The notes under the pieces are model-generated. The model did no database searches. It was not told where the DNA came from and worked only from the letters and a program-made list of their open reading frames with translations. The translations under genes were made by a program, and so were the position numbers. From contig CAYHXC010000008.1 of NCBI GenBank assembly GCA_964360585.1, forward strand, positions 8-64,007: DNA of 64,000 bases, read 5' to 3'. Shown here one piece after another: positions 2,880 to 30,900 of the stretch. Each line of letters opens with the position of its first letter. The stretch's first letter is position 1. The stretch is from an uncultured Candidatus Saccharibacteria bacterium. GTDB taxonomy: Bacteria > Patescibacteriota > Minisyncoccia > UBA6257 > 2-01-FULL-56-20.

Positions 2880-3335
2880 ATGCACAGATTAGATACGGAA
2901 AAACAAATCTTTTTCTACGAGAATGAGTTCTATGTCTTCTCCAATTATTCTTCTTTCACCATCGAATGGAAAGGTAGCTTATATCCAACATCGGAACATG
3001 TATACCACTCTGAAAAATTTAATGACGAGAACCTAAAAGAGCAAGTGAGACTTGCGCGTTCAGCCCATGATTCGCAAAAGTTCGCGCAAGCGAATGTCGA
3101 TAAATACAGAAAGGATTGGAATCAAATTAGGATAGGTATTATGAAAGATATCCTTCTAGTAAAAGTTGAGCAACATCCCTACGTGAAGAAGAAGCTTCTG
3201 GAATCAGAAAACAAGGAACTTATTGAAGATTCCTGGCGAGATTCATTTTGGGGCTGGGGACCAAATAAAGATGGTGAGAATCGCCTTGGTAAGCTTTGGA
3301 TGGAAATCAGGAATGATTTTAGAAATAAGGAGTAG
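2880..3335 (+). CDS. NADAR domain protein (YbiA-like)
   Basis: YbiA-like conserved blocks: PTSEHvYHseKF and WGwGpnkdGeNRLGklWMEiR. Confidence 0.7.
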   Translation: MHRLDTEKQIFFYENEFYVFSNYSSFTIEWKGSLYPTSEHVYHSEKFNDENLKEQVRLARSAHDSQKFAQANVDKYRKDWNQIRIGIMKDILLVKVEQHPYVKKKLLESENKELIEDSWRDSFWGWGPNKDGENRLGKLWMEIRNDFRNKE

Positions 3336-3854: not shown

Positions 3855-4625
3855 TTAGCCTTCGATGAAGGCGGAGGCAACGAGCAGGTTTCGAAGTGAA
3901 ACCGGATCGTTCTTCGAGATGACGTGGAACTGAGGGATGAATTTGGCGACGTCCGCATGACCGCTTTCGATCTGCGCGATCACTTCGTCGGCCGCACGCC
4001 CCGTGCCTTCGACGAGCACTGTCGGCCAGCCGCGTCGTGCGGAGTGCATGATCTCATCTTTCGTGATAGGCCCGCCGTTCCAGGCGATGGTACCGAGAGC
4101 CTCGAAGCCGGCGTACGTCCTCCAGTGTTCCATCATGGTGAAGTAGGTGGGAACATCGAGGTCCCACTCTGCCTTACCGTCAGGACCATTCTGGACGATC
4201 AAGATGCCCAGCATGTCCGGATTTGGCACGGTTCCGTACTCGTCGAGCACGAGACGTGAGTCCTCCTGAAGTGAGAGCATGCTGGTGCGTGGACACGTGC
4301 CCAACGCGACACACCCCGGATTTTCCGAGGCGATCAGGCCCGGCACATCGGTGACCATCGGATCCACTTCGCCGTTCGCAACCTGACGCGTGCCGCCCGA
4401 CCAAGCCAGTCCTTCGAAACCTCGAAGAGCTTTCGAGAAAAACGAAAGCATTGCACGCTTGTCATCGGGTCCCATGCCTTTGCATCCGCCGAGGAAACGC
4501 AACGCCACCTTCTTTCGCGCGCGCGTACCCATGAGAGCGAATGCGGCGGGAAGACCATCGGTCGCATTCATCACGACCAGATGCACCTTCTCGCCATTCA
4601 CGTGATAAGGTCTCGTTCTATCCAT
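3855..4625 (-). CDS. divergent LOG/SLOG-superfamily Rossmann protein (paralog A)
   Basis: Glycine-rich motifs FLGGCKGMG, AWSGGTR and WNGGPITKDEI...VLVEGTGRAAD resemble the LOG GGGxGxMG / PGGxGTxEE pattern; compare canonical LOG at 48152. Start set at an internal ATG with a GGAGG SD. Confidence 0.5.
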   Translation of the reverse strand: MDRTRPYHVNGEKVHLVVMNATDGLPAAFALMGTRARKKVALRFLGGCKGMGPDDKRAMLSFFSKALRGFEGLAWSGGTRQVANGEVDPMVTDVPGLIASENPGCVALGTCPRTSMLSLQEDSRLVLDEYGTVPNPDMLGILIVQNGPDGKAEWDLDVPTYFTMMEHWRTYAGFEALGTIAWNGGPITKDEIMHSARRGWPTVLVEGTGRAADEVIAQIESGHADVAKFIPQFHVISKNDPVSLRNLLVASAFIEG

Positions 4626-4649
4626 TATTCCTCCTCCCATCGCTGGGTG

Positions 4650-5447
4650 TTATGTTCCGGTTCTTTCTACAAGCCGGAAACGTGACTCAGTTTTCGGCAC
4701 TATCGAAAGTTTCTCGAGTTGATGCCGAAGTGACATTTCCGTAAGTTCGGCAACGTGAACATGCGGATGCGCCAGAAGAAATTCTTTATCGTTTGCGTAG
4801 CGATCGGTCGTCCGACCACTACCGCGGATAAGAAGAACTGGCCACGCACGCTTTGCCCAAAGAAGAATTTCCTTTTCGGTAATACCTCCTCCGTTATAGG
4901 TGAGTAGAAGCGACCGCCACCCGCCACCATAGGTGACGAGATGCTGAACAATCTCTGCACACGTCTCATACTCCGTGTCCCAACAGCTCTTCTGATCAAC
5001 AGAAGCCTGCACGATGAGACACGTATCCTGATTCGGATGTGCAATGGTGAAGTAGGGATCTTCCGGATTATCCGCGACCACCAGTCCGTGTTGGGTGAGC
5101 TGAAGATCGCTTTGTCGTGCGACAACCCCGAGCGTGTATGAGTCGGGGCAGAGCTCACGAACAATGGGCGCAATCTCAGTAATGCCTAGAACAACCTTTG
5201 TGGGATCACTCCGGGAACGCATCTGTGTCCCTCCGAAGAGAACTGCTCCGCGGAAACCGCGAAACACATTCCCAAAAAGATTAAACATTCCTTGAGCATG
5301 CTCATCGGACATGAATCCACAACCGCCGGTCAGTCGAACAACGACAGTGTCTTTAGCCTTCGTGAGGCTAAGAGCCACCTTTACGGAAAGCTTTTCCCCC
5401 TCGTTTTCTATATACAAGGAGGGAACGTTTTTCACAGGAAAGCTCAT
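4650..5447 (-). CDS. divergent LOG/SLOG-superfamily Rossmann protein (paralog B)
   Basis: Paralog of previous (RLTGGCGFMSDEH, LFGGTQMRS, YNGGGITEKEI...LLIRGSGRTTD); strong SD aaggaggag upstream. Confidence 0.5.
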   Translation of the reverse strand: MSFPVKNVPSLYIENEGEKLSVKVALSLTKAKDTVVVRLTGGCGFMSDEHAQGMFNLFGNVFRGFRGAVLFGGTQMRSRSDPTKVVLGITEIAPIVRELCPDSYTLGVVARQSDLQLTQHGLVVADNPEDPYFTIAHPNQDTCLIVQASVDQKSCWDTEYETCAEIVQHLVTYGGGWRSLLLTYNGGGITEKEILLWAKRAWPVLLIRGSGRTTDRYANDKEFLLAHPHVHVAELTEMSLRHQLEKLSIVPKTESRFRLVERTGT

Positions 5448-5610
5448 GGATTCTCCTCCTTTTTTGATTCTGTTTTTTGAATTGTGAAGGGCTGAAACTA
5501 GGGCACATTATCATCTAATTTTAATGTATTGTCAATACCCTGGATATACACAACCCGCGCGGTAAGAAGCGTACGTTTACGTCTGTATATTTGTCCCGTA
5601 GAATGACCTC

Positions 5611-7545
5611 ATGACCCCTGAAAAACCACATGATGGTGAGGGAAATACAGAACGAGTAGAAAAATCACACCTTACCCCTCCCGCTCTCGAACTACTTCTT
5701 GACACAGGAGAAGCGGTTGTCTGGCCGGAAAAAATCAAAAACGATGTCGAGTTTGTAAAGCAACGAGAAGAACGGAAACAACTGATTAATAATTTGGAGC
5801 GAGTCACAGATCGATTACCTCGTCCTGATGTTTCTCTCCAAAACGCCGTAGCAGAAAAGATCATTAGTGAACCGGAAGTCGCTACTTTATATGAATCGCT
5901 ACAGAAACTCCTAGAAGACCCGGACTATGGGAGAGCTCTTCTCTATATTCCTTTTGAGTTCTTACCGAAATCAACGTGGAGTGCCGAAACAACGGAACTG
6001 AAAACGGCGATAACGGCATTCACGAATATCTATCTAAAAACATGGGAGAAACTTCTTCATTCACATGACGTACGAACAAATTTTGTTGATGGCGATATGA
6101 TCGAAATAGATTTTCGCGAAGGAGATGACTGGCCTCGTGTAGTCAAAGCAGCCCACCTTATACCACAACTTTTAGAGCACGATCTCATTACTACGGAACA
6201 GATATTCTCTCTGGCAGAAAAAACTAACGATACTCTTCTGAAGAGTACTATTGACGACGCATTGCTCGTAGCAGCAGATCTTGGTCGTCTCACTCCAGAG
6301 GATCGAGCCCGCATGCGATCGTCCAGCGATGAAGCTCTTCGAGGAACGGAAAAACTATTTGATGAACCCCTTGCAAACGAAAGCAACGTTACCGGACCAA
6401 TCGATTTTCAAGTGGTTGAGCAGGAGCTGAACACCACACTAGAGGAAGCCCGAACGGCCGACTACGGCTCCGTATCCCCCAACAGAAAAACCTGGCTGCA
6501 ACAGGAAAAACGACGACACCTCCTTGCAGCGGCCAGCCAGAAAATGTATCAGGCAATTGCTTCCAAACAACTTACTCCCGAGATTGGAAAAACATATATT
6601 GAAACCACCGGCAGTGCTATGGGAGAAGCTTGCATTGAAGGCATACGACAAGCAGTAGAAGCCGCTGTGGAAAAAGATCCAGGCAAGGGACAGCAACTCT
6701 TCGAGGAGTATCGCAATGTTATTACTACCGCTTGGAAAGAAAAACGAATTGAGACTCGGGATGCGTTAGGAAAACTATTTTTCCGCCTCAATACTCTCGG
6801 TGTTATCAATACTCAAGAACTAGAAACTCTGGGAATTGCTCGCCCAAATCTGGTTGGGCCATTTACAGAAAATCTGAAGTTCATGGAATCTGAAATGGGC
6901 GATGTGGATCGAATGTTGCGAGCGATCGAGAACAATCCAGGATTATCAGAACTCATTTATCCAGTAATTCTGATGCACGGGTCACGACTTAAGGGCTATA
7001 GCGCCGCCGAGTCTGATATCGACATCAGTATTATTGTTCGCCCCGAGGTGTCTGTCGAAGAACGCGAAAAGTTAGAGAAATTATTACAAGATGTATTTGC
7101 TCACGAAAAAATCCCTGAAAAAGTGATTGAATTTTGGCTCACCGAAAAAGACGGAAATCTATCCGTTCGGAATTTTGAAAAAAACGATCCTGCTTTAGGA
7201 GAATCCTCGTTTGTTCATATCTTATTCGGCGCCGTCTGGAAAGGCGATCCGAAAGTAGTTGAAGAATTACGAGAAAAATTACTAGTCCCCTATTTTTATC
7301 CGACTGAAGAAAAACTCTACGGCCGAGAGGCGCGAGATATTTATATTGAGCAGTTAGAGCGCGATGCTCTCCAATATCGACTCATGCACAAGGGTTATGA
7401 ACGATTCTTTCCGCGATTCGGAGGTGTCCGTTCGAAGCACGCTAACTTAATTGATGGTGAAAGTACTTTCTGGGACTCTGGGTATCGACAAACTGCCTTA
7501 CAGTTGTATGCCCGTCGAGTATTCTTGCCGAAACTGCAATCATAA
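5611..7545 (+). CDS. large protein with C-terminal Pol-beta-type nucleotidyltransferase (MNT/CD-NTase-like) domain
   Basis: hGS...GxxxxxSDxD NTase signature HGSRLKGYSAAESDIDISIIV in the last ~200 aa; ~430-aa N-terminal region of unknown function. Confidence 0.6.
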   Translation: MTPEKPHDGEGNTERVEKSHLTPPALELLLDTGEAVVWPEKIKNDVEFVKQREERKQLINNLERVTDRLPRPDVSLQNAVAEKIISEPEVATLYESLQKLLEDPDYGRALLYIPFEFLPKSTWSAETTELKTAITAFTNIYLKTWEKLLHSHDVRTNFVDGDMIEIDFREGDDWPRVVKAAHLIPQLLEHDLITTEQIFSLAEKTNDTLLKSTIDDALLVAADLGRLTPEDRARMRSSSDEALRGTEKLFDEPLANESNVTGPIDFQVVEQELNTTLEEARTADYGSVSPNRKTWLQQEKRRHLLAAASQKMYQAIASKQLTPEIGKTYIETTGSAMGEACIEGIRQAVEAAVEKDPGKGQQLFEEYRNVITTAWKEKRIETRDALGKLFFRLNTLGVINTQELETLGIARPNLVGPFTENLKFMESEMGDVDRMLRAIENNPGLSELIYPVILMHGSRLKGYSAAESDIDISIIVRPEVSVEEREKLEKLLQDVFAHEKIPEKVIEFWLTEKDGNLSVRNFEKNDPALGESSFVHILFGAVWKGDPKVVEELREKLLVPYFYPTEEKLYGREARDIYIEQLERDALQYRLMHKGYERFFPRFGGVRSKHANLIDGESTFWDSGYRQTALQLYARRVFLPKLQS

Positions 7546-7548
7546 AAA

Positions 7549-7583
7549 AAGCCGGACGATCACGAATGATTGTCCGGCTTAGG
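7549..7583. terminator. bidirectional rho-independent terminator
   Basis: aaaaaaaGCCGGACgatcacgaatgattGTCCGGCtta between convergent genes. Confidence 0.65.
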
Positions 7584-7610
7584 CTAACTACTAAAAAAGA
7601 ACTGTTGAGC

Positions 7611-8798
7611 CTAGAGACTGGTCTTGGCTTTGCCGCCGATGCCGGTGAGATCTCTTCCGCCATTGCGACGAACACCGCCACCGTCCAAGTGACTCCACGG
7701 AATCGCCACACCGAGCTGCCACAGCGCGGTGATGTAGGTGAGCTCCGTCTGGCCAACACTGACGTTCGGAAGCTCAATAACTCCCAGGGTGTAGCCCTTC
7801 AGACTCTGCTCGAGCCTGGGATAGTCTGATGAAACAGCCACTCCCAGCTGCTTGAGCATCTGATCGCGATTCAGTGCGCCGACCTGTGCCGGAAGACTCG
7901 GATTCTCCAGAGCCCTCCTGATCTGTTGAGCATCATAGGCCAATGCCATGGCCACGGGAATGCCCGTACCAGCAAAGATACCGTTGATGCTTGTGATCAC
8001 AGCTTCGGCTGCATCACGGAGACCGTCGGTGGGAGGCGGAGGCATCATTCCAGATGACAAACCTCCCGCCCCACCTGCCATACTGGCAAAGACGGCCATC
8101 ATGGTTGCTGGATTTGCCATTCCTTTCTGCCAGGAATCGATCCAGCCGACCAAGAGCTCTTGAAAAGAGATTAGGGACGGCCAAAGGTTGGTATCCATCT
8201 TGGCAAGCAGGGCTGTCTTGCGACTCTTCGTCGCGAAGCGGCCCGTTGGCCCTGGCATCGCCGCGAAGATCTCAGCATAGCTACGTTCGGTCAGGGTTCG
8301 CTGCATATCCCAGAACTCCGGACTGGCTGGTTCTTCGAGCGACTCGGCATTTCGCTCCATGGCAATGACGATCTTCTCAGGAAGGTCGTAGAGACCCACC
8401 CGATTGGCCAGCGCAGCACTCACGGTTCCAATGACCGTCTCGCGGTTGAACTTGAGAACTCCCCCAACCTTCAGGGCTGCGAGCCACGAAGTGTCGTCAG
8501 GAACGGGCGGCAGGACCCCCTCGAAGGAAATCCTTGCCATAGCAGCCGCGTCGGCCGGAGCGCTCACTGCCGGCTTCAGAGCCGCCAGCAGATTGCGAGC
8601 AGGAATTCGCTTCATCCCCGCTTCGATCAGATCGGCTTCGGTCAGTGCGCCGAGGTCTTCGACCTTGGTCACACCGAAGTCTTCCTTGATCTTGGCGATC
8701 ACATTCACGTCGGCGCCGTGCTCGATGAGCTTGGCGTCGACCGGATCCACTGGGGCTGGCTCTCCCGATGCTACGGGAGTGGTTTCCTCTGTTGTCAT
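7611..8798 (-). CDS. hypothetical protein (396 aa) with Gly/Pro-rich segment
   Basis: ORF trimmed to internal ATG (MTTEETTPV) preceded by AAGGAGAA; the longer form would overlap the upstream gene by >300 nt. Confidence 0.5.
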   Translation of the reverse strand: MTTEETTPVASGEPAPVDPVDAKLIEHGADVNVIAKIKEDFGVTKVEDLGALTEADLIEAGMKRIPARNLLAALKPAVSAPADAAAMARISFEGVLPPVPDDTSWLAALKVGGVLKFNRETVIGTVSAALANRVGLYDLPEKIVIAMERNAESLEEPASPEFWDMQRTLTERSYAEIFAAMPGPTGRFATKSRKTALLAKMDTNLWPSLISFQELLVGWIDSWQKGMANPATMMAVFASMAGGAGGLSSGMMPPPPTDGLRDAAEAVITSINGIFAGTGIPVAMALAYDAQQIRRALENPSLPAQVGALNRDQMLKQLGVAVSSDYPRLEQSLKGYTLGVIELPNVSVGQTELTYITALWQLGVAIPWSHLDGGGVRRNGGRDLTGIGGKAKTSL

Positions 8799-8808
8799 GC
8801 GCTTCTCC

Positions 8809-10197
8809 TTATCTGCAGAGTTTGTCCCGTTCAGTTGGGCCGAACGAAACCAGGCGAACGGGTATGCCCAGTTTCTGGCCAAGGATCCCCACACACAGAT
8901 CGTACAATATGTCACGATCGGCGGCAGGGGCGATATCAAAAGAGAATATCTCCGGCACGCAGTTTTGCAACTCGTGTCCAAGACATTCTTGAAAGGATAG
9001 TCGGGACAGATCCTCACCATGCCGCACACGCAATTCGCCGCTTGGCGTAAAATACGTAAAATCATCGGCACCTGAGTATCTGTCTGAGAGTGACCAGATT
9101 TTATTTTTCTGGATCTGATCAAACCAGGTTACGGCGAGACCGTCGAAGGCTTTAGTGCCGCCACACGCCTCGATGGCGTATCGCAACAACACCAGGTCGA
9201 GTGGACCCACTCGAGCTTTGCCTTGATAACGATTCTCTACCTTGTTGCTGCCCGGCAAGAGCTGCTCGCTCATGGCCGGATCAGCGGTTGGCATCGGTCC
9301 TGCTCCGTGGCGTATCTGATACGCCCGAGTGACGCCGATTTTTATCACCTCTCCACTGTATCCAGCTTCCTCGATCATCGCCCAAGTAAACTGAGGCAAC
9401 GTTCGAATGGCAGACACATGCGGATGAAAACCATAGTAGCGATCGGTGAGCACTCCGTGAGAACTCTCGACCACCACTACGCCATCACGATTAAGGATCT
9501 CTCGCCGGAGATAGTCTTGATCGACTATGTACACACGCTCCGCCGTTTCCCGAAAACGACTGACAACGTAATTCAGAAAACCATCATCTCCGAGGAGACT
9601 CAGTTCTTCCTGAACCACATCGCGGTCATCTTCTAGAAATGAACCCTCAATGATATGCACCAGATCACGACGAACGTATTCACGAATCGCCGCAATCTGA
9701 TCACGGAGGCAAGATCCCGAAAGATCTCGAGCGCGCACGGCGGTGTCAGGATAACGTTCGGCTTGCCGATACGCCTCGCCGACACCAGTACCAATCGTTC
9801 CGCGAGGATTATCCCCACGGGCCAGTTCTTTGATGCGAGAAGCGATGCCATGAAATGGCGTCGCACAGAGTGCATCTTCGTCGATAGTCAGAAGACCAAA
9901 GACTCCGTCGAGGCCACAGGCAAATTGCAACTGGGTCCCTTCGTTTAAGATACCTTCCGGCGTAACGACGAAGCGAGACGAAAGATGCGTCCTCGCTCCT
10001 TCGAAGGTGCCGCACCCCCACTGACTGAACGCGAAGCGATCGCCAGCTGAGGTTTGTACACCGTGACTTCCTTGAGCACCGCCAACTTTGATGATGGTGT
10101 GTGCTCGTCGCATCGAACTGATCTTGTGAATAATTCCACCCTTACCACCGTCACCAGGACCAAGGTCCGTGACGGTGTACAGCTTTTTTGTTGCCAT
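8809..10197 (-). CDS. adenylosuccinate synthetase (PurA) family homolog, divergent
   Basis: N-terminal GDGGKGG (PurA GDEGKGK P-loop) and VGGAQGSHG (PurA GGxNAGHT) blocks, plus PurA-like length; start set at MATKKLYTV. Confidence 0.6.
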   Translation of the reverse strand: MATKKLYTVTDLGPGDGGKGGIIHKISSMRRAHTIIKVGGAQGSHGVQTSAGDRFAFSQWGCGTFEGARTHLSSRFVVTPEGILNEGTQLQFACGLDGVFGLLTIDEDALCATPFHGIASRIKELARGDNPRGTIGTGVGEAYRQAERYPDTAVRARDLSGSCLRDQIAAIREYVRRDLVHIIEGSFLEDDRDVVQEELSLLGDDGFLNYVVSRFRETAERVYIVDQDYLRREILNRDGVVVVESSHGVLTDRYYGFHPHVSAIRTLPQFTWAMIEEAGYSGEVIKIGVTRAYQIRHGAGPMPTADPAMSEQLLPGSNKVENRYQGKARVGPLDLVLLRYAIEACGGTKAFDGLAVTWFDQIQKNKIWSLSDRYSGADDFTYFTPSGELRVRHGEDLSRLSFQECLGHELQNCVPEIFSFDIAPAADRDILYDLCVGILGQKLGIPVRLVSFGPTERDKLCR

Positions 10198-10233
10198 ACC
10201 ATCACGTCCTTGATCCTGGTTGAGGGTCAACCC

Positions 10234-11367
10234 TTAGAGCCAACCGCCGTCGGGCTTGGTAGCAGTAGATTTACCCTTCTTCTTCGACAAACCGCCAAGT
10301 TCGGCGGCTTCGTCCGCATTGACCGGCCAGAGGTCGGTTTTGGTGTGGAAGATGTCACCTTTCTTTGGCTGCCTGTTGAAGTTCGGTAACGCTTTCTGCG
10401 CCCCGAGTGGAATGCTCGAAACCGCACTTAGAATCATCGCCACCTCTCTCTCTGTCAGATTCTGATGACCCAGGAAATCCTTGGCCGATCGAAGATCCAA
10501 CGTTCCTTCCGTGAGACCGATGATCGTGGCCATCGCGTACGGAGCGTGCTGGACTCGAGACAGACGGATGAGTCGATCCTTTCCGTAGAGATCCCGCCAG
10601 AAAGCGGGAGCACCCGGATTGGGATCGACGATCAGGATGAAGATGTGCGCTTGCTTCGTCAGCTCACGCACGACGTCCCGTGTTTCGGGAAGGTCGCGCG
10701 GATCAATCTCGTAACCGTTCTCTTTGACCTTGTCGAACACCTCAGATCCGTAGATCTGCTTCAGAGCGGCCGCCTCCAGTCTTTCGCGTGCCGGCGCATC
10801 GGTGATCGTGAAGTCGTACGACTTCAGACCAATCAGCCGTTGGTAGGCGCGGGTCAAGTAGGCAGCCCCGAAAAGTCCGTAGTGCGGATCTTCGGGTATG
10901 TCGCCGCCTTGTCGGATCGGGTTCATCAGAGTCAGCTGATTGACCATCCGATCGGCCAGCACTTCGAACTGTCCACGACACATGATGAATTGGTCGTCGA
11001 CATCATTGAAGACACCCGCACAGTAGAACGGATCTCGTCCAGAAAGCACTTCGGCGACGGGCTCGCACAATGCCGGCAAAGCCGCCAAGGCCAAGTCCAC
11101 ATTGTCGCCCATCGACGATGTCGTATCGAGACGATACTCGATCGAAACTGGCGAACCGACAGCGACCTCGAAGAGGCCGTCCGATCGGTCGAGGAGACGA
11201 ATCCGCGAAGGACGGATGACCCCGTACTGAGCTGGATCAACCAGCGGGTCGAGCTTGCCGGTTTTCTTGACCGTTTGCTCCCCACGCACGGTTACTGCAG
11301 CTCCCCTGGTCGTCAGCTTTGACGTCGTTTCCTCGAATGTAGTTCTCGAAAAACCACCTTTGGCCAT
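10234..11367 (-). CDS. vWA-like domain protein (TerY-like)
   Basis: Putative MIDAS-like D-T-T-S-S-M after a hydrophobic strand; start at M3 with GAGGAG SD. Confidence 0.4.
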   Translation of the reverse strand: MAKGGFSRTTFEETTSKLTTRGAAVTVRGEQTVKKTGKLDPLVDPAQYGVIRPSRIRLLDRSDGLFEVAVGSPVSIEYRLDTTSSMGDNVDLALAALPALCEPVAEVLSGRDPFYCAGVFNDVDDQFIMCRGQFEVLADRMVNQLTLMNPIRQGGDIPEDPHYGLFGAAYLTRAYQRLIGLKSYDFTITDAPARERLEAAALKQIYGSEVFDKVKENGYEIDPRDLPETRDVVRELTKQAHIFILIVDPNPGAPAFWRDLYGKDRLIRLSRVQHAPYAMATIIGLTEGTLDLRSAKDFLGHQNLTEREVAMILSAVSSIPLGAQKALPNFNRQPKKGDIFHTKTDLWPVNADEAAELGGLSKKKGKSTATKPDGGWL

Positions 11368-11379
11368 GTGCATTCTCCT

Positions 11380-12198
11380 CTAAAGCGGTAGGGTGGTGAA
11401 AGGATAAAATCCCCTCTCCCACAGTTGATCAACGAGTTCGTAGAAGTCCCGATGGGCTTCCTGAGCACTACGATGACCGTTCTCTCGAAGGACCATCAGG
11501 TACTCACTGTACTGATCGAACTCTTTACTTCCGTCTCCCGGAATGCCTCCTTCATCTGTGCCGCCCAAAACTGCAAAAACAGTTTGGGCTGCGGCCTTCA
11601 CCTCCTCAGACGCATCGATCCGAGTCACACCGTCGGGGTGTCGCTGGGCGTTTCCCCAGTTGAACACCAAAACGCCATGCTGGCTTGGTTCGATGAGAAC
11701 GTTGCCTGGAGTGATCTGGTTAATGGTGATGTCTGCGCCATGTGCGAAAGCGACAATCTTCAGAAGTTTGCCTAGGATCCAAACGCTGGACCGAAGGTCA
11801 ACCCTCTGTTGGTCTCGGTGCACAACGTTGTGCAAGGGCACCATTCTCCGTGTGTCGTCGATGTTCCTGAAGGCAAGCACATTGGCCCGCCGCTCCCCCT
11901 GTTCGGTCAGCAAGAAGCTGTCGACTAGGGCAGGAAAACCGAGCTCATAGTGGAGTTTACTCTCCGGGTTGGTCTTGATCTTGGTATACATCTCTTCCAA
12001 CTCACCAGCTCGCGCCAAAAGTTGTTCGAGAAAATACGCTCCGCGATCAAGCATGCCATTCTGAGCAACATCCGTTGCCACTTGCAGTAACTGCCCTTGA
12101 CCGTCCCCCTCTGGCGAGCAAAGGTACAAACGGTACTCGGGTGTTTCTGCGACACGATCGCCAACATGGTACATACGTGAACCATTTCTAACGATCAT
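11380..12198 (-). CDS. protein kinase-like fold protein, divergent (possible pseudokinase)
   Basis: Catalytic-loop-like HGADITINQITPGNVLIEP (cf HRDLKPxNIL) and VHRD, but no clear DFG Asp; strong SD GGAGGTG. Confidence 0.35.
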   Translation of the reverse strand: MIVRNGSRMYHVGDRVAETPEYRLYLCSPEGDGQGQLLQVATDVAQNGMLDRGAYFLEQLLARAGELEEMYTKIKTNPESKLHYELGFPALVDSFLLTEQGERRANVLAFRNIDDTRRMVPLHNVVHRDQQRVDLRSSVWILGKLLKIVAFAHGADITINQITPGNVLIEPSQHGVLVFNWGNAQRHPDGVTRIDASEEVKAAAQTVFAVLGGTDEGGIPGDGSKEFDQYSEYLMVLRENGHRSAQEAHRDFYELVDQLWERGFYPFTTLPL

Positions 12199-25848: not shown

Positions 25849-27906
25849 TTAGTTTCCGGCGTTAAAGATATCACGCACTTCCGTTGCCGTAAGCGCTTTA
25901 TTATAGACCCTTACCGCATCCAACCGACCAGCAAAAGAAGTGTTGTAGGGGAAATTAAATGGATTGACCGCAGTGGACGATGGCGCCCACGATCCCACAA
26001 ATGATGAGGCTACAGAGTTTCCATTAACATATGCCGCTCCGGTCGTGGGCGAACTAATTACCGCCACAAGATGAGTCCACGCTCCAACAGGCGGGGCATA
26101 CGAAGTAAAGGTGAGCCCGGAAGAAGTAAAATTATCAAACAGCACTGTCGACGCTGAGTTCAAAGCAAATCGAAGCTGCGCATTTTTTCGTACGATTTCT
26201 TTACCGTTCAACACCGAAGTTGGATAGACCCAAACCGATAGAGACAGTGGCGCGGCATCAAAGTCAATGGATGCGGCGTGCGGAACAGAGACATAGTTAT
26301 CACTGCCGTTGAATTCCAAGCAACCACCCTCTTTACAACTGGCGCCTGAAAGCCAAGCCGGACTACCGCTCGCATTTCCAGTATTCCCATTCGCAGTCGC
26401 ATCGGCAACGGGTATGCCAGGCGTATCATTCATTCTCCAGTAACCTTTAAGATTGGCATCGTAGTTCACGGTAAAGAAATTTTCAGTATTAAATTGCAGA
26501 TCCGGATTGGTAACCGTCACACTGCGCACACCAACCGGCGCTGTGCTTGACACATTGATTGTGACATCAATCCGGGTAGAGTTCACGAAAGTCGGCGAAC
26601 CGACATTCGTAATACCGGCTCCGCCAAAGACAACCGTCGCGCCACTCACGAAATCAGCGCCATTAACCTGCACGACAAGATTATTCGTCGCCTGGTTACC
26701 GGCACTTGGTGAGAGCGAGAAAATTGAAGGCGCCGGTGCGGCGGCCGCATTCACGGTAAAGGTACTGGCATTGGAGGTCTGGGTATCAGGATTGGTCACG
26801 GTCACACTTCTCGCGCCCACTGTGGCGCCACCGGCAATGTTGATCGTTACCGTTAAAGTACTGGAGTTTACATATGTCGGCGAGCCCACCTGGGTAATAC
26901 CAGTGCCGCTAAAGAGTACGGTTGGTAAGGAAGGCGTATTCACAAAGTTAGCACCGTTCACGGTGACGACAAGGCTGCTCGATCCTTGGGTGCCGAAATT
27001 CGGGGAAAGCGAGGAAATTGACGGGGCTGGCGCGCCAGGCGCAGTTATCGTGAAAGCATTTGAGGCGGTGTTTGAGGAGTTGTCCAAATTGATAACCTTG
27101 AGATCCCACTGACCAACGGCGGCGCCGGAGATGTTAAATGATCCGCCCGTAATGGTTGTGCCGTTGGTCACGCTAAAACCCGTCCCCGTAATATCGGTCT
27201 GGCCAGTCTTCATAAGTTTAACTGACGCGCCGGACACGAATCCTTGTCCGGAAATCGAGGTAATACTCACCGTGTTGTTATTCACACCGGTTGAAGGAGT
27301 AATTGAATAGACTTGGACGCTTTGCGAGTTGGGACGAAGCGGCGCCACAGTCAAATGATTCCCGATCTCAAGCAAAGTCGTGTCGTCGCCGCCGTCCTGA
27401 ATAAGATCACTGCGGTATCGCTGTGACTCCATCGCGGCATTTAACTCCCAACTACCAGCAACAAAAGTATAGTAGTAACCCGAAGAGGTGGTGTTCGTCG
27501 GATCTATTGGCAGAACCGGAAGATTGGGATTGAATGACATATTCCCAAAGTTCACGGGAAGCCAACCGGTGCCATCAGCGTTCCGGAAGGTTGAACTGGG
27601 GCTACAGTAGAATGTCCAACCCGCAGGTGGCGTCAGGCCTGTATTGGCACAACCGGGATCGGAATCTGGAATGGAAAGATACACGACCGAAGGGGAGCCA
27701 AACGTTGCTCCAGGAATGTCAGTTTGGTAAAGACGAAGGGCGGTGTTGATCATTTGGAGATCTTGAAGACGTCGTGAGTCTCGGGCGGCGCGTAAAAGCT
27801 CAACCGGATTCAAGACAAGGAGAACCACGACCGAAAGCACGGCAATAATACCGATCACTACCAAGAGTTCAATCATGGTGAACCCTTTTTTCGACGCAAA
27901 ATTCAT
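25849..27906 (-). CDS. large type IV pilin-like protein with IPT/TIG-like repeats and C-terminal LamG domain
   Basis: Prepilin N-terminus KKGFTMIELLVVIGIIAVL; two tandem ~95-aa Ig-like repeats; C-terminal LamG-like ...RLDAVRVYNKAL. Confidence 0.75.
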   Translation of the reverse strand: MNFASKKGFTMIELLVVIGIIAVLSVVVLLVLNPVELLRAARDSRRLQDLQMINTALRLYQTDIPGATFGSPSVVYLSIPDSDPGCANTGLTPPAGWTFYCSPSSTFRNADGTGWLPVNFGNMSFNPNLPVLPIDPTNTTSSGYYYTFVAGSWELNAAMESQRYRSDLIQDGGDDTTLLEIGNHLTVAPLRPNSQSVQVYSITPSTGVNNNTVSITSISGQGFVSGASVKLMKTGQTDITGTGFSVTNGTTITGGSFNISGAAVGQWDLKVINLDNSSNTASNAFTITAPGAPAPSISSLSPNFGTQGSSSLVVTVNGANFVNTPSLPTVLFSGTGITQVGSPTYVNSSTLTVTINIAGGATVGARSVTVTNPDTQTSNASTFTVNAAAAPAPSIFSLSPSAGNQATNNLVVQVNGADFVSGATVVFGGAGITNVGSPTFVNSTRIDVTINVSSTAPVGVRSVTVTNPDLQFNTENFFTVNYDANLKGYWRMNDTPGIPVADATANGNTGNASGSPAWLSGASCKEGGCLEFNGSDNYVSVPHAASIDFDAAPLSLSVWVYPTSVLNGKEIVRKNAQLRFALNSASTVLFDNFTSSGLTFTSYAPPVGAWTHLVAVISSPTTGAAYVNGNSVASSFVGSWAPSSTAVNPFNFPYNTSFAGRLDAVRVYNKALTATEVRDIFNAGN

Positions 27907-27932: not shown

Positions 27933-30900
27933 TTAACCGCCGCTCCGTAGTTTCTCCACAAGGAGCATGAGAAGCTGAAGCAGTCTCGCTTGAAGATCGT
28001 GGAGAAGCGCTTCAAGTTGGGCGCGTGTCCGGATCGGCGTTGTTGTCTGCGGCGTTTTTCCGTACAGTTGATTTAACTTAAGTCGGGTGGCTGGTCCGGC
28101 TAAACCATAGCCAGTGGTGTTGGGGGTGCCACTCGTGACGAGGTTCTGTTTGGTCTGGAATCTCTGGACGGCTTGGATAGTGGCTTGGTCATAAATACCG
28201 GTCGGAGTTCCCGTGTAACTGCCATCATCTATCAGGTACTGCTGGAGGAGGGTGACTTGGGTGTTGACCATGCCCGGGGAGAAGGGACCGGTCAGAGCTT
28301 GCCTGGTGATTGTTGGGGATTGAGGGACTGTCGGCGTGGTTGGAGTAAGCGGTACTAAGGGTGGTGGAATGAAGGGTTGGCCGGGGATACCACCGGTGTT
28401 TCCTGAGGCTCCGGTGTTACCACTCACGGTTGTCTGACCTGCTACAGTAGTTGCCTGTCCTGTGGCCGGGCTACTGTAGTTTGCATTCTGGTCGTAGGAG
28501 TAGAGGGCGTAGAAGTAGGTGACACCATTCACGAGGTTGGTATCGGTAGTGGAAGTACCCGTACCATCGTAGATGGAGATGCCATCAGTTCTTGAAGTTG
28601 GGATACTTCCCTGTTTTCTCACAACCATGGTACGGACAAAATCTGGGTCAGTGGGGTTCACCCAACTCAGTGAGACTTGACGATCAGCGCCTTGAGTTAT
28701 CAGATTGCTTGGTGATCCTGGCGGAGTTGTATCTACCTGAGGCGTAGAAGTTGTTGTCGAGCTTGGCGTGACCGGAAGAGAAAGTGTCGTGAAACTGACG
28801 AGACTGGAAACAGGAGAGAGATTATTTGCATCATCACGTGAGGTAAGCGCAACGGAGTAGGTCGTATTGGGAATGAGGCCAACGAGGGTGTAGGTCTCGG
28901 CTTGTCCCGCCATCTGGGGAGTTGGTTCACCCGTGACTTGCGTCGCCGAGTTATAGCTGAAGGATCCTTGGGTGTACCGGAGATCGTAACTCAAGGCCTG
29001 GCCGAGCAAAAGATCATCCCCTGGCGCCGTCCAGGCAAGAACGGCTGAGGTTTGGGTCGTTGTGGTAACGCGGAGATCGGTTGTCTGACTGGGCGGCAAG
29101 GTATCCGGAATTACATTTATAAGTGTGGCTGCCAGTTGATTAGTAGAGAAACTGAGGTTGTTTGCGGCATCAGCCGATCGAAGTCGTATGTTATACGTAG
29201 TGCCATCCGAGAGATTCTGGAGAGTGACTGAGTGGCTGGTGGTAAGCGACGAGATGAAAGGTGATGACTGGCCATACGTAGTAGTGAGACCATAATCGAT
29301 TTGCGTGGTCGCTGGTTCATTGGTTGTCCAGCTGATCGTTATAGAACTCGTGGTGCCTGATGAAATAATTCCTGAGATCGTGGGCGGAATCGTATCAGGA
29401 AGAGGAATCGTTGAGGTGGTTGTGGTGAGTTTTTCCATAAAGTCTTCTGCAGACCAACCACTGACTCCAGAGTCCCAGTTCACGTTCCACCAGGTGAAGC
29501 CATTAGCAACTGTCGGGCCGCCGGTGACCGTACCCTGCTCATTGTTCTGAAGAAGAGCAAGAGACGTGCCCGAAGTTGATGGAGTTGAACGGACATTCAG
29601 GGGGCCGGAGGAAACATAGACTCTGTCATTTATCTGGAATTTAGCCGGACCGGCAACGTTCGAAACTGTAATCGTAACCGCGTTCGCCGTGGTTCGATTG
29701 CCAGCGGCATCGCGCGCCGTGGCCGTTACGCTGTGCGAGCCATTCACGGTTTGCGCGGTGTCCCAGGAAACAGAGTAAGGGGCAGTTGTATCTTCAGCTC
29801 CGAGATTCGCGCCATCGATAGCGAACTGAACTCCCGCGATGCCTATATTATCAGAGGCAGTAGCGGAAACAGTCGCTGAGCCGAAAAGTGTCGCGCCGGC
29901 GGCCGGAGCGGTCAGTGAAATAGTTGGCGGAACAGTGTCTGTTGTGGGCGTAGACGAGGTGATACTCACCGTGAGGGAAAGCGGACCCGAGACCGTACTC
30001 ATCGGCGTCGGCGTGACACCGTTAAAAGCCTTAGCCGTCCAAAGGTGCGTGCCATTTTGAGCCGCCGAGATATTCCAAGAATACTGATATGGCGCAACCG
30101 TATCAGTGCTGGCCAAAACCGCGCCGTCATAAAACTCCACTTTGCTTATTCCGCTTTCTGGATCGGAAGCCGTGGCCGTAATTATAACGGTCGAAGGAGT
30201 TGCGTATGGAACAGAACTCGAAGGCGCGGAGAGACTGACAATCGGCGGCGTCGAATCACTTCCACCATTCACCGTGTAGCAAAGAACGAGCTGGGTTGAT
30301 CTGTCGCCAGCATACGTTTGAGCGTCCCGGGGAACAAGCGGCGCGAGGTTATCTTCGTTTACTGCCGGCGGGGTGTTGTCGGTGAAGGTGAGTCGTAGGC
30401 CCGTATACCCGGAAAGATTTACATTTGACTGGATAGTGCTCAAGGCCACTGTCTGACGGCCGCTCGCTGTTGGTCTTACAATCGAAGCCGCAAACAGTGG
30501 ATCGGTTGAGTTCACTGAACCATTAGTCCAGTCGGCAGTGGACAGTCCCGCCGACGATGCCCACGGATGCCAGTCGAGAATCATTGACCGCGGTCCTCCG
30601 CCAGCTCCCGCCCAGTACGGCCGGAGATACCCGCCCAGAATTTGTGTGCCCTGAGGCCAAGCTGAACCATCCGGACGCACGGCCGTATTCCAACGCCACA
30701 ATGCCAGTTGTGTCACGTACGGCGAACTGCCCTGATTCTTGCGATTTACATAATCTATGTAATCAGCATAGTAACTAGTTTCGACGATTGGTGAGCCAAG
30801 ATTTGCATAGGTAGTGCCACTTCGCCTCACCGTTCCGTCATCGGCGCTCACCGCGATAGGATAGACGGCTTCCAACTGACCGGCGGGGCACGCGTTTGGA

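What the first reader, a model, noticed from the sequence alone, without database searches (positions are those of the whole stretch)
8809..10197. PurA-family enzyme with altered P-loop (GDGGKGG for GDEGKGK) and switch (GGAQGSHG for GGHNAGHT)
The active-site signatures of adenylosuccinate synthetase are recognisable but substituted at positions that contact GTP, Mg2+ and IMP. Changes of this kind are seen in PurA paralogs that accept other substrates, such as dGMP in PurZ and deaza-purines in ToyG. The gene sits between an NTase and a vWA plus kinase pair rather than with purine-biosynthesis genes.
Basis: partly seen in the sequence, partly recalled or inferred. Interest (0 to 1): 0.7.

Follow-up and report, generated by a model that had tools for sequence, protein, structure and literature searches.

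The report
PurA-like ligase paired with vWA protein
This gene is not the housekeeping AMP-making enzyme but a rebuilt relative of it that sits next to a metal-binding vWA protein and a dead kinase in nearly every case examined, in tiny parasitic bacteria and in hundreds of large phages, and nobody has yet said what this gene set does.

Summary
It belongs to the adenylosuccinate synthetase (AdSS/PurA) superfamily (Pfam 111 bits) but scores far below the purA equivalog cut-off (71 vs 395 bits).

- **Kept:** the phosphotransfer core, namely Asp13, Lys16, His41, Asp333 and Ser414 (E. coli numbering).
- **Changed:** the aspartate loop (TTGR to NRYQGK) and several IMP contacts (N38Q, T129I, Q224H, V273H).
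- **Not PurZ:** the defining Asp13-to-Ser change is absent.

The vWA and PurA-like pair also occurs in phages, usually behind a J-domain pseudokinase. It is in 78 of 80 viral loci examined (500 found) and in 219-220 cultured phages with the same genus counts.

In 8 of 40 CPR loci an NrtR-type NAD/ADP-ribose regulator lies beside the cluster.

Best reading: an NTP-dependent purine-6 amino-ligase that does not use free aspartate and works with the vWA partner. Substrates and role are unknown.

The parts
8809..10197 (-). PurA-like ligase ('PurAL'), 462 aa; a divergent member of the adenylosuccinate synthetase superfamily
   Evidence: Pfam PF00709 111 bits. NCBIfam purA 71 bits against a cut-off of 395.55. 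PHROG 1211 139 bits. More than 1466 homologues; the top 120 are 60-74% identical and the named ones are mostly Patescibacteria.
10135..10155 (-). P-loop GDGGKGG (E. coli G12-K18). Asp13 and Lys16 equivalents are kept; E14G and K18G
10060..10083 (-). Switch loop GGAQGSHG (E. coli G35-T42). His41 equivalent is kept; H37A, N38Q, T42G
   Evidence: HMMER alignment
9772..9801 (-). GTIGTGVGEA loop (E. coli G127-A136): T128 is kept; T129I, R131T, P135E
9454..9468 (-). ESSHG (E. coli E221-G225 EGAQG): Q224H, invariant in 141 of 141 family members
9304..9312 (-). RHG (E. coli R272-V273-G274): V273H, found in all vWA-linked PurA-likes where the motif pattern was detected
9211..9234 (-). Rebuilt aspartate loop NRYQGKAR, replacing E. 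coli A299-R306 (ATTGRRRR). T300, T301 and R303 are lost and the loop is one residue shorter
9118..9129 (-). TWFD (E. coli T330-D333 TKLD): guanine-recognising Asp333 is kept; K331W
10234..11373 (-). vWA-domain partner, 377-379 aa. MIDAS DTTSSM at nt 11110-11127 and TITDAP at nt 10792-10809
11380..12198 (-). Kinase-fold protein, probably a pseudokinase (KinL), 272 aa
   Evidence: PHROG 3043 'kinase' E 4e-12. Weak PglW and PD-T4-6 hits. Only Y25, F88, D134, W140 and H174 are invariant and the catalytic motifs are degenerate. A KinL-vWA fusion protein, P0402, exists.
7611..8798 (-). SAM/HhH-like N-terminal domain plus a roughly 280-aa all-helical domain with a Met-rich PPGMMxPPDT loop, 395 aa
5611..7545 (+). 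Pol-beta-type nucleotidyltransferase, 644 aa, convergent with the operon. GS...DxD motif at nt 6979-7029
   Evidence: Pfam Polbeta 26.9 bits. G457, S458, D469 and D471 are invariant or nearly so. Present in CPR loci.
3855..5447 (-). Two tandem SLOG (LSDAT_prok) genes, 3855-4640 and 4650-5447. They are accessory and found only in this locus
   Evidence: Pfam PF18171. Absent from the other loci.

Best explanation
**What is shown**
- The gene encodes a member of a distinct clade of the AdSS superfamily that has not, to my knowledge, been named.
- The clade keeps the machinery PurA uses to bind an NTP and transfer its gamma-phosphate to a purine 6-oxo group. These are the P-loop Gly and Lys, the catalytic Asp13 and His41 equivalents, and Asp333 and Ser414 for the donor base.
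- The loop that holds L-aspartate has been rebuilt, and several residues around the ribose-5'-phosphate of IMP have been replaced.
- The gene is nearly always adjacent to a MIDAS-bearing vWA gene and usually follows a pseudokinase gene.
- The same pair occurs in CPR bacteria and in many large phages.

**What is inferred**
- The enzyme still works by the PurA mechanism. NTP plus a 6-oxopurine nucleotide gives a 6-phosphoryl intermediate, which an amine then attacks to give an N6-substituted (or plain) adenine nucleotide.
- The amine is not free L-aspartate.
- The nucleotide is probably not a simple 5'-monophosphate bound as in PurA.
- It acts as a complex with the vWA protein. The vWA MIDAS metal or flexible N-terminus would supply what the lost Asp loop and the non-conserved Arg143 equivalent no longer provide. 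The pseudokinase would be a scaffold, and in phages it carries a J-domain that could recruit host Hsp70.
- In CPR a SAM-helical protein and a Pol-beta NTase are added. Recurrent adjacency to NrtR, NadE and ADP-ribosylglycohydrolase genes points to NAD/ADP-ribose-linked nucleotide metabolism.

The biological role is most likely nucleotide salvage or remodelling by replicators that live off host nucleotide pools. The exact substrates are unknown.
For: **Superfamily membership without equivalog status**

**Residue map**
- Kept: D16, K19, H45, D360 and S451, in 137-141 of 141 family members.
- Changed: N38Q, T129I/V, Q224H, V273H, TTGR to NR[YWF]QG, and K331W.

**Conservation in CPR**
- The top 120 homologues are 60-74% identical across CPR lineages.
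- The five-gene cluster is found in essentially every CPR locus long enough to show it.
- Among 19 loci with at least 3 kb on both sides, no flanking gene family is shared by more than 5.

**The vWA partner**

**The pair in phages**
- The Bixzunavirus order is J-domain kinase, vWA (split by an intein), PurA-like.
- 500 IMG/VR contigs carry the vWA. Of the 80 loci kept, 78 also have a PurA-like gene, nearly always immediately downstream.
- Among cultured phages, 219 records have the vWA and 220 have the PurA-like, with the same genus counts.
- The clade signature (N38Q, V273H, [FYW]QG) is recovered in most viral copies; the patterns were not found in 8, 39 and 20 of 77.

**Other support**
- A KinL-vWA fusion exists.
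- The pseudokinase is degenerate.
- No purB and no second purA in the 64-kb window or in the other fetched loci.
- 93% of Patescibacteria genomes lack de novo nucleotide synthesis (bioRxiv 10.64898/2026.06.21.733656).
- An NrtR-like regulator lies near the cluster in 8 of 40 distinct CPR loci. It is adjacent and co-oriented in 5.
Against: - No biochemical data exist for any member, so the chemistry is extrapolated from PurA.
- Gap placement in the Asp loop and around Arg143 is uncertain. An invariant Arg (R329) may still correspond to Arg305 or Arg306, and a nearly invariant Arg144 could replace Arg143.
- The IMP pocket is largely intact in the phage members (GDEGKG, EGAQG), so IMP itself remains possible as a substrate.
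- A physical PurAL-vWA complex was not modelled.
- The NAD link rests on neighbourhood only. It is seen in a minority of loci, which are phylogenetically related.
- In phages NADAR was found near the pair in only 2 of 80 loci.
Confidence: 0.5

Rival explanations
1. It is simply a very divergent housekeeping adenylosuccinate synthetase (IMP + Asp + GTP) used for AMP salvage.
For: PF00709 match. Catalytic Asp and His and the guanine-binding Asp are kept. Public annotations call it adenylosuccinate synthase.
Against: - It scores 71 bits against the 395-bit equivalog cut-off.
- T300, T301 and R303 of the Asp loop are gone, and Q224H, T129I and N38Q are fixed.
- No purB was found in the 64-kb window or in the other fetched loci.
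- Most Patescibacteria lack the purine pathway.
- It is strictly coupled to vWA and pseudokinase genes, also in phages.
Confidence: 0.06
2. It is a PurZ-type enzyme making 2-aminoadenine (dZ) precursors from dGMP.
For: The best PHROG hit is phrog_1211, labelled '2-aminooxy adenylosuccinate synthetase'. W replaces K331 as in phiVC8 PurZ.
Against: - PurZ is defined by Ser in place of Asp13, in 100% of phage PurZ (PMC12884076). Here Asp is kept.
- None of the seven genes scanned around it (3855-12198) is an HD-domain (DatZ-like), MazG (MazZ-like) or polymerase (DpoZ-like) protein.
- The host is a cellular CPR organism.
- In an NJ tree the clade is separate from phiVC8 PurZ.
Confidence: 0.02
3. 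It is a one-step aminase. It uses the same phosphoryl-IMP chemistry but takes ammonia (or an amide-derived NH3) as nucleophile. This would make AMP, or re-aminate ITP, IDP-ribose or deamino-NAD, without PurB. That would suit organisms and phages lacking purB and facing deaminase or NADase stress.
For: - The carboxylate-binding residues of the Asp loop are lost and replaced by a compact aromatic-Gln-Gly loop.
- There is no purB in the CPR sequence at hand, and none of the 27 phage records with a PurB match is among the listed Mycobacterium, Rhizobium or Vibrio carriers of the pair.
- NAD-related neighbours recur: NrtR, NadE, ARH, NADAR, and the phage PRTase plus NMNAT/Nudix genes.
Against: It does not explain the near-constant vWA and pseudokinase partners. 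No glutaminase partner is present. No such enzyme is known. The substrates were not tested.
Confidence: 0.12
4. It has become a non-catalytic NTP-binding switch or scaffold that regulates the vWA and pseudokinase proteins.
For: Its partners are protein-interaction modules (vWA, pseudokinase, J-domain, SAM).
Against: The residues needed only for chemistry (Asp13 and His41 equivalents) are invariant in 140-141 of 141 members, as is the whole nucleotide pocket. Such conservation is not expected of a mere binding module.
Confidence: 0.08

Closest known systems
Adenylosuccinate synthetase PurA (E. coli, PDB 1ade/1gim family)
   Same: Same fold and superfamily. Keeps the P-loop Gly and Lys, catalytic Asp13 and His41, Asp333 and Ser414 for the donor base, and T128/G127 and T239 (as Ser) of the IMP pocket.
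   Different: About 22% identity. E14G, K18G, H37A, N38Q, T42G, T129I, R131T, Q224H, V273H and K331W. The Asp loop TTGRRR is replaced by NRYQGK-R. Arg143 is not conserved. There is no purine-pathway context. It is nearly always adjacent to a vWA gene.
Phage PurZ / PurZ0 (2-aminoadenylosuccinate synthetase; phiVC8, S-2L)
   Same: A PurA paralogue carried by phages with altered substrate choice. Trp at the K331 position. Falls into the same PHROG (1211).
   Different: PurZ has Ser for Asp13 and keeps a TT-containing aspartate loop (T273-T276 in S-2L, PMC8342488). It comes with DatZ, MazZ and DpoZ. The present clade keeps Asp13, has lost the TT loop and comes with vWA and a pseudokinase.
'PurA-like adenylosuccinate synthetase' of Bixzunavirus (cluster C1) mycobacteriophages, e.g. 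Sauce gp260
   Same: Closest annotated relative (32% identity over 99% of the protein). Same clade signature (N38Q, V273H, WQGK loop). Same gene order: kinase-fold, vWA, PurA-like.
   Different: The phage enzyme keeps EGAQG and has A and T rather than G and G in the P-loop. The phage kinase-fold protein has an N-terminal J-domain. The phage vWA is interrupted by an intein in many isolates. There is no SAM-helical or NTase partner. Its function is equally unknown.
NTPase + vWA pairs (MoxR-vWA, BchI-BchD, CobS-CobT, NorQ-NorD) and the TerY-P triad (vWA + kinase + PP2C)
   Same: A P-loop NTPase encoded next to a MIDAS vWA protein; vWA next to a kinase-fold protein.
   Different: The NTPase here is a PurA-type ligase, not an AAA+ ATPase. 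There is no PP2C phosphatase, and the kinase-fold protein lacks the catalytic residues.

Membership tests
Adenylosuccinate synthetase (PurA, functional equivalog) | Homology to PF00709 / AdSS fold | tested here: met
   Pfam 111.2 bits, E 6.7e-32. All significant PDB matches are AdSS.
Adenylosuccinate synthetase (PurA, functional equivalog) | Score above the curated equivalog cut-off (TIGR00184 395.55; NF002223 402) | tested here: not met
   71.0 and 70.7 bits.
Adenylosuccinate synthetase (PurA, functional equivalog) | Catalytic Asp13 and His41 and P-loop Lys16 | tested here: met
   D16, H45 and K19 are invariant or nearly so in 141 family sequences.
Adenylosuccinate synthetase (PurA, functional equivalog) | L-aspartate loop T300-T301-G-R303-x-R305 | tested here: not met
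   Replaced by N-R-[YWF]-Q-G-[KEQ]-[VIA]-R with a one-residue deletion. R329 may still match R305 or R306.
Adenylosuccinate synthetase (PurA, functional equivalog) | IMP contacts N38, T129, Q224, T239, and R143 from the second subunit | tested here: not met
   N38Q, T129I/V, Q224H, T239S. The column aligned to R143 is Y/F/L/H.
Adenylosuccinate synthetase (PurA, functional equivalog) | GTP base recognition (T/N)KxD plus Ser414 | tested here: inconclusive
   D360 and S451 are kept and K331W. The donor could be GTP or ATP.
Adenylosuccinate synthetase (PurA, functional equivalog) | Works with adenylosuccinate lyase PurB in the same organism | tested here: inconclusive
   No PurB homologue in the 64-kb window or in the other fetched loci. 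Whole genomes could not be scanned.
PurZ / PurZ0 | Ser (or Gly) in place of Asp13 | tested here: not met
   Asp in 140 of 141 CPR members and in all 74 of 77 viral members where the P-loop pattern was found. Definition from PMC12884076.
PurZ / PurZ0 | Linked datZ, mazZ, dutZ or dpoZ genes | tested here: not met
   The neighbours are pseudokinase, vWA, SAM-helical protein, NTase and SLOG proteins.
vWA-linked PurA-like clade (defined here) | Signature N38Q + V273H + [FYWH]-Q-G in place of T-T-G | tested here: met
   Q42, H297 and Y324-Q325-G326.
vWA-linked PurA-like clade (defined here) | MIDAS vWA gene immediately upstream on the same strand | tested here: met
   vWA at 10234-11373(-), 36 nt upstream. 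The same arrangement is seen in the CPR loci and in 78 of 80 viral loci.
vWA-linked PurA-like clade (defined here) | Kinase-fold (pseudokinase) gene upstream of the vWA | tested here: met
   KinL at 11380-12198(-). Found in 49 of 80 viral loci, there with a J-domain.
ToyG-type deazapurine enzymes | Sequence relationship to ToyG and a toyocamycin-type cluster | not tested
   No ToyG sequence was available in the collections. No deazapurine (QueC/D/E-like) genes were seen among the neighbours scanned.
TerY-P triad (vWA + Ser/Thr kinase + PP2C) | Active kinase and PP2C phosphatase next to the vWA | tested here: not met
   No PP2C is present, and the kinase motifs are degenerate.

The most novel reading that the evidence does not exclude
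The PurA-like enzyme does not act on two free metabolites. Two variants are not excluded.

- **Protein-directed.** It couples a 6-oxopurine nucleotide to an amine presented by its protein partner. The strongly conserved N-terminal Gly of the vWA protein would give a new base-linked protein-nucleotide modification, which the CPR NTase might extend.
- **NAD-directed.** It aminates the hypoxanthine of an NAD- or ADP-ribose-type dinucleotide, giving a new NAD/ADPR repair or reconstitution route used by phages and CPR.

Either would be a new reaction class for the AdSS fold, with the vWA MIDAS completing the active site.
Probability: 0.12. Interest if true: 0.9.

Novelty: new variant of a known kind. 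Interest (0 to 1): 0.75.

Why it matters
**A conserved module with no assigned function.** Large phages carry it, including more than 200 genetically tractable Bixzunavirus mycobacteriophages. So do ultrasmall parasitic Patescibacteria, whose roughly 1-Mb genomes rarely keep dispensable 7-kb clusters. That conservation implies an important and unknown piece of nucleotide biochemistry common to replicators that live on host pools.

**Current annotation is misleading.**
- MAG pipelines call it adenylosuccinate synthase, so it can be counted as a purine-pathway marker.
- Phage pipelines call it PurZ ('2-aminooxy adenylosuccinate synthetase'), although the PurZ-defining Ser is absent.

**Possible new enzymology.** The rebuilt aspartate site, together with a MIDAS partner that is almost always present, suggests a new substrate pair for a textbook enzyme fold.

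**A testable lead.** The recurrent NrtR and NAD-gene neighbourhood points towards NAD/ADP-ribose metabolism or counter-defence.

Tried and rejected
- **Phage or mobile-element origin of the window.** Rejected. There is no megablast match in phages. The window carries ordinary CPR chromosomal genes: G6PD, glycerol kinase, P-type ATPase, and a giant surface protein.
- **Known defence system.** PADLOC gave only weak kinase and NTase hits.
- **Sequence identification of the vWA and SAM-helical partners.** Pfam, NCBIfam, PHROG and PDB profile searches found nothing. Only structure prediction resolved the vWA. The C-terminal helical domain of the SAM protein has no PDB or BFVD match. The afdb50 library was unavailable.
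- **NADAR as a general partner.** It lies near the pair in the window, L054 and L057, but in only 2 of 80 viral loci, so it was dropped as a core component.
- **Literature.** Eight full-text searches found no description of the module. The Southlakia Tn-seq paper and its supplements do not mention it.
- **A large MAFFT alignment.** It shifted the switch loop by one residue. The HMMER pairwise alignment and the smaller alignment were used instead.
- **A scan with the mixed CPR and phage vWA alignment.** It failed because no stretch was conserved enough.
- **ToyG comparison.** Not possible.
Full report
**1. The observation**

The finding's coordinates hold a real gene, but on the minus strand. 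The ORF is 8809..10230(-), and the ATG at 10197 gives a 462-aa protein. The plus strand of the span is full of stops.

The two quoted motifs are present. GDGGKGG is at residues 15-21 and GGAQGSHG at residues 39-46.

Homology to adenylosuccinate synthetase (AdSS/PurA) is unambiguous. Pfam PF00709 gives 111 bits, E 6.7e-32, and all significant PDB hits are AdSS. Every curated NCBIfam purA equivalog scores far below its cut-off, the best being 71 bits against 395.55. It is a member of the superfamily but not a recognisable orthologue of the housekeeping enzyme.

**2. Active-site map**

I aligned the protein with E. coli PurA (fetched from NC_000913), phiVC8 PurZ, a mycobacteriophage homologue and 140 family members. 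Residue roles rest on my knowledge of the E. coli AdSS structures and on PMC8342488.

Kept, in E. coli numbering:
- G12, D13, G15, K16, G17
- H41
- G127, T128
- E221, G225
- T239 (as Ser)
- R272, G274
- D333, S414, G416

Changed, and fixed within the family:
- E14G, K18G
- H37A, N38Q, T42G
- T129I/V, R131T
- G222S, A223S, Q224H
- V273H
- K331W

The aspartate loop GATTGRRRR becomes N-R-[Y/W/F]-Q-G-x-x-R and is one residue shorter, so T300, T301 and R303 are gone.

The column aligned with Arg143, which in PurA reaches into the neighbouring subunit's IMP site, is Y/F/L/H. A nearby Arg (R144 of the query) is nearly invariant and could substitute.

The machinery for NTP binding and phosphoryl transfer is therefore under strong constraint. 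The aspartate site and the surroundings of the ribose-5'-phosphate have been rebuilt.

One caveat applies. The large MAFFT alignment is shifted by one residue in the switch loop, so I used the HMMER alignment there. Gap placement in the Asp loop is also ambiguous.

**3. Who has it**

More than 1466 homologues were found. The top 120 are 60-74% identical, about 461 aa long, and the named ones are mostly Patescibacteria (CPR) metagenome-assembled genomes (MAGs). The window itself matches a groundwater contig.

The rest of the window carries ordinary CPR chromosomal genes. These include G6PD, glycerol kinase, a P-type ATPase, PhoH-PIN, a 2580-aa LamG/Ig/fn3 surface protein and a pilin-like LamG protein. 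It has no tRNAs and no phage match.

**4. The gene cluster**

In the window the minus-strand operon is:
- kinase-fold protein (11380-12198)
- a 379-aa protein (10234-11373)
- the PurA-like gene (8809-10197)
- a 395-aa protein (7611-8798)

The gaps between them are 6, 36 and 10 nt. A 644-aa Pol-beta nucleotidyltransferase (5611-7545, plus strand) converges on its end.

The same five genes in the same order occur in three unrelated genomic contexts. They are also found in essentially every one of 38 species-level CPR loci long enough to show them. These span Saccharibacteria, Parcubacteria-type groups, Peribacteria, Daviesbacteria and others.

The PurA-like protein is the best conserved member, at 42-67% identity. 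The partners are mostly 27-52% identical, and the SAM-helical protein reaches about 65% in a few loci.

Among 19 loci with at least 3 kb on both sides, no flanking gene family is shared by more than five. The cluster is therefore an autonomous unit. The two SLOG genes, NADAR and Fic next to it in the window are local additions.

**5. The partners**

*The 'kinase'.* It matches phage 'kinase' PHROG 3043 (E 4e-12). Only five positions are invariant. The HRD Asp, the DFG Asp and the beta3 Lys are not conserved. In the window they read ITINQ, FNW and LLQVA. It is most likely a pseudokinase.

*The NTase.* It keeps the GS...DxD signature and has conserved N- and C-terminal regions of unknown fold.

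**6. The same core in phages**

The closest annotated relatives of the enzyme are the 'PurA-like adenylosuccinate synthetase' genes of more than 200 Bixzunavirus mycobacteriophages. They are 32% identical over 99% of the protein.

In phage Sauce the order is Ser/Thr-kinase-like gp258, 'HNH endonuclease' gp259, PurA-like gp260. A profile of the CPR vWA family hits gp259 in two pieces, residues 9-165 and 471-566 (E 7e-14). The middle is a Hint/intein module. So gp259 is the vWA homologue split by an intein, inserted a few residues before the MIDAS Asp.

Other phages carrying the pair:
- An actinophage-like IMG/VR contig (L054, with terminase and portal genes) has J-domain-kinase-fold, vWA (PHROG 2971, unknown function) and PurA-like genes.
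- Rhizobium and Vibrio jumbo phages have a Met/Gly-rich protein, vWA and PurA-like genes.

A scan of IMG/VR with the phage vWA alignment found 500 contigs. In the 80 loci kept, 78 have a PurA-like gene, almost always immediately downstream, and 49 have the J-domain pseudokinase upstream.

In cultured phages the two genes co-occur with the same genus counts. The vWA is in 219 records and the PurA-like in 220. The breakdown is Mycobacterium 201 and 202, Rhizobium 10 and 10, Vibrio 6 and 6.

Further points:
- The phage kinase-fold proteins all carry an N-terminal J-domain (HPD motif) and lack the catalytic Asp residues.
- A natural pseudokinase-vWA fusion exists (P0402).
- In 1.84 billion representative proteins the CPR-type vWA profile finds 419 clusters at E 0.001 or better, and 87 at 1e-30 or better.

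**7. A clade signature**

The vWA-linked PurA-likes share N38Q, V273H and [F/Y/W/H]-Q-G in place of T-T-G wherever the motif patterns were found. They keep Asp13.

The phage members otherwise look canonical (GDEGKG, GGAQAGHT, EGAQG).

A neighbour-joining tree was built with no bootstrap and only two outgroups. It places the vWA-linked sequences together, apart from E. coli PurA and phiVC8 PurZ. The CPR sequences are monophyletic and sister to the actinophage ones.

PurZ membership is excluded by its own definition. Ser replaces Asp13 in 100% of phage PurZ (PMC12884076). That paper also shows that only 147 of 481 phage PF00709 proteins are PurZ, so the rest, including this clade, are uncharacterised.

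**8. Context clues to function**

There is no purB and no second purA in the 64-kb window or in the other fetched loci. 93% of Patescibacteria genomes lack de novo nucleotide synthesis (bioRxiv 10.64898/2026.06.21.733656). None of the 27 phage records with a PurB match is among the listed Mycobacterium, Rhizobium or Vibrio carriers of the pair.

The only recurrent neighbour in CPR is an NrtR-type Nudix regulator, known as an ADP-ribose-responsive regulator of NAD genes. It occurs in 8 of 40 distinct loci:
- adjacent to and co-oriented with the pseudokinase in L001, L008 and L016
- adjacent to and co-oriented with the NTase in L013 and L015
- within a few kb in L019 and L038

NadE is found in 5 of 40 loci and ADP-ribosylglycohydrolase in 2 of 40.

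With a 2% chance expectation the binomial tail is about 1e-6. This is not corrected for relatedness of the loci.

Other NAD-related neighbours:
- two SLOG genes and NADAR in the window
- NADAR in L054 and L057
- a PRTase plus NMNAT/Nudix pair in the Rhizobium phage

NADAR is not a general partner, being found in only 2 of 80 viral loci.

**9. Interpretation**

*Shown:*
- a catalytically equipped AdSS-fold enzyme with a rebuilt aspartate site
- a MIDAS vWA gene beside it in nearly every locus examined, usually with a pseudokinase gene
- presence across CPR and many large phages

*Inferred:*
- It still uses the PurA mechanism, with a 6-phosphoryl-purine intermediate and then attack by an amine.
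- The amine is not free L-aspartate.
- The nucleotide is bound differently at its 5' end.
- The vWA protein is a subunit or substrate presenter.
- The role lies in nucleotide or NAD-related metabolism of host-dependent replicators.

The vWA N-terminus is 'MG' in 102 of 120 CPR homologues and about 76 of 81 phage homologues, and it is disordered in the model. This leaves open the more radical idea that the N-terminal glycine amine is the nucleophile.

I put about 0.5 on the general model and much less on any specific substrate.

**10. Novelty**

I found no description of this module in eight full-text searches. Subscription-only literature was not covered.

It is a new variant of a known enzyme kind, embedded in a gene set that matches no described system. 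It is currently mis-annotated in both CPR genomes (as PurA) and phage genomes (as PurZ).

Noticed in passing
L047 5197-6984 (Mycobacterium phage Sauce gp259): The gene annotated 'HNH endonuclease' is the vWA partner interrupted by a Hint/intein module. The exteins are residues 9-165 and 471-566, and the insertion lies a few residues before the MIDAS Asp. Other Bixzunavirus isolates carry an intein-free copy (a single BLAST piece covering residues 42-257).
   Followed up: partly
P0402 (679 aa, from the representative library): A natural fusion of the pseudokinase (residues 8-265) and the vWA protein (residues 340-670). This argues that the two interact physically.
   Followed up: yes
window 11367-11373 and homologues (vWA N-terminus): The vWA proteins begin with Met-Gly in 102 of 120 CPR homologues and about 76 of 81 phage homologues (phage MGGGxW, CPR MGxxTFSR), despite only 20-25% overall identity. 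The window copy itself is an exception, starting MHMAKGG or MAKGG. The C-terminus also ends in a conserved hydrophobic residue plus Leu (WL, YL or RL).
   Followed up: partly
L001 6894-7589; L008 5006-5698; L016 3476-4165; L013 6318-7025; L015 6954-7589: An NrtR-like Nudix/winged-helix regulator lies directly next to either end of the cluster and is co-oriented with the adjacent gene. NadE and ADP-ribosylglycohydrolase genes are nearby in some loci.
   Followed up: partly
window 3855-5447, 2880-3335, 659-1819: Two tandem stand-alone SLOG (LSDAT_prok) genes, a NADAR gene and a Fic gene flank the cluster only in this genome. The SLOG pair diverges from the NTase across a 163-nt region with good promoter-like hexamers on both strands (an 11/12 match at 5535-5507).
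   Followed up: partly
L056 2639-3433; L057 3123-3842: In Rhizobium and Vibrio jumbo phages the gene upstream of the vWA is a homologous Met/Gly-rich protein (tails such as MMQTMMMMKMMGGM) instead of the J-domain pseudokinase. Seven of 80 viral loci have it. The CPR SAM-helical protein also has a Met-rich loop, but no homology was shown.
   Followed up: partly
PHROG 1211 / RefSeq annotations (e.g. NC_054722 gp260): More than 200 mycobacteriophage genes, and the jumbo-phage copies, are labelled '2-aminooxy adenylosuccinate synthetase' (PurZ). They keep Asp13 and lack the PurZ-defining Ser, so this is probably an annotation error spread through the PHROG name.
   Followed up: yes
L008, L012, L026 (labelled Gammaproteobacteria), L009 (Fibrobacteres), P0098 (Omnitrophota): Contigs carrying the typical CPR cluster at 56-67% identity are filed under non-CPR MAG taxonomies. 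This is probably mis-binning rather than true distribution outside Patescibacteria.
   Followed up: no
L043 7998-9071: A Saccharibacteria locus has a solitary, shorter PurA-like relative (36% identity to residues 2-295), with none of the four partner genes within 8 kb.
   Followed up: no
window 27933-35675 and 25849-27906: A 2580-aa protein with LamG, Calx-beta, fn3, Kelch, Big_7, SH3 and PG-binding domains sits next to a 685-aa protein with a type IV pilin N-methylation motif and a LamG domain. These are typical CPR surface or pilus-tip adhesin candidates.
   Followed up: no
L054 1428-3305: The ThyX gene of the actinophage-like contig that carries the triad also contains a LAGLIDADG intein.
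   Followed up: no
bioRxiv 10.64898/2026.06.21.733656 (methods): Adenylosuccinate synthase is used there as a marker of de novo purine synthesis in Patescibacteria. Members of the present family carry PF00709 and public 'adenylosuccinate synthase' names, so they could inflate such counts.
   Followed up: no
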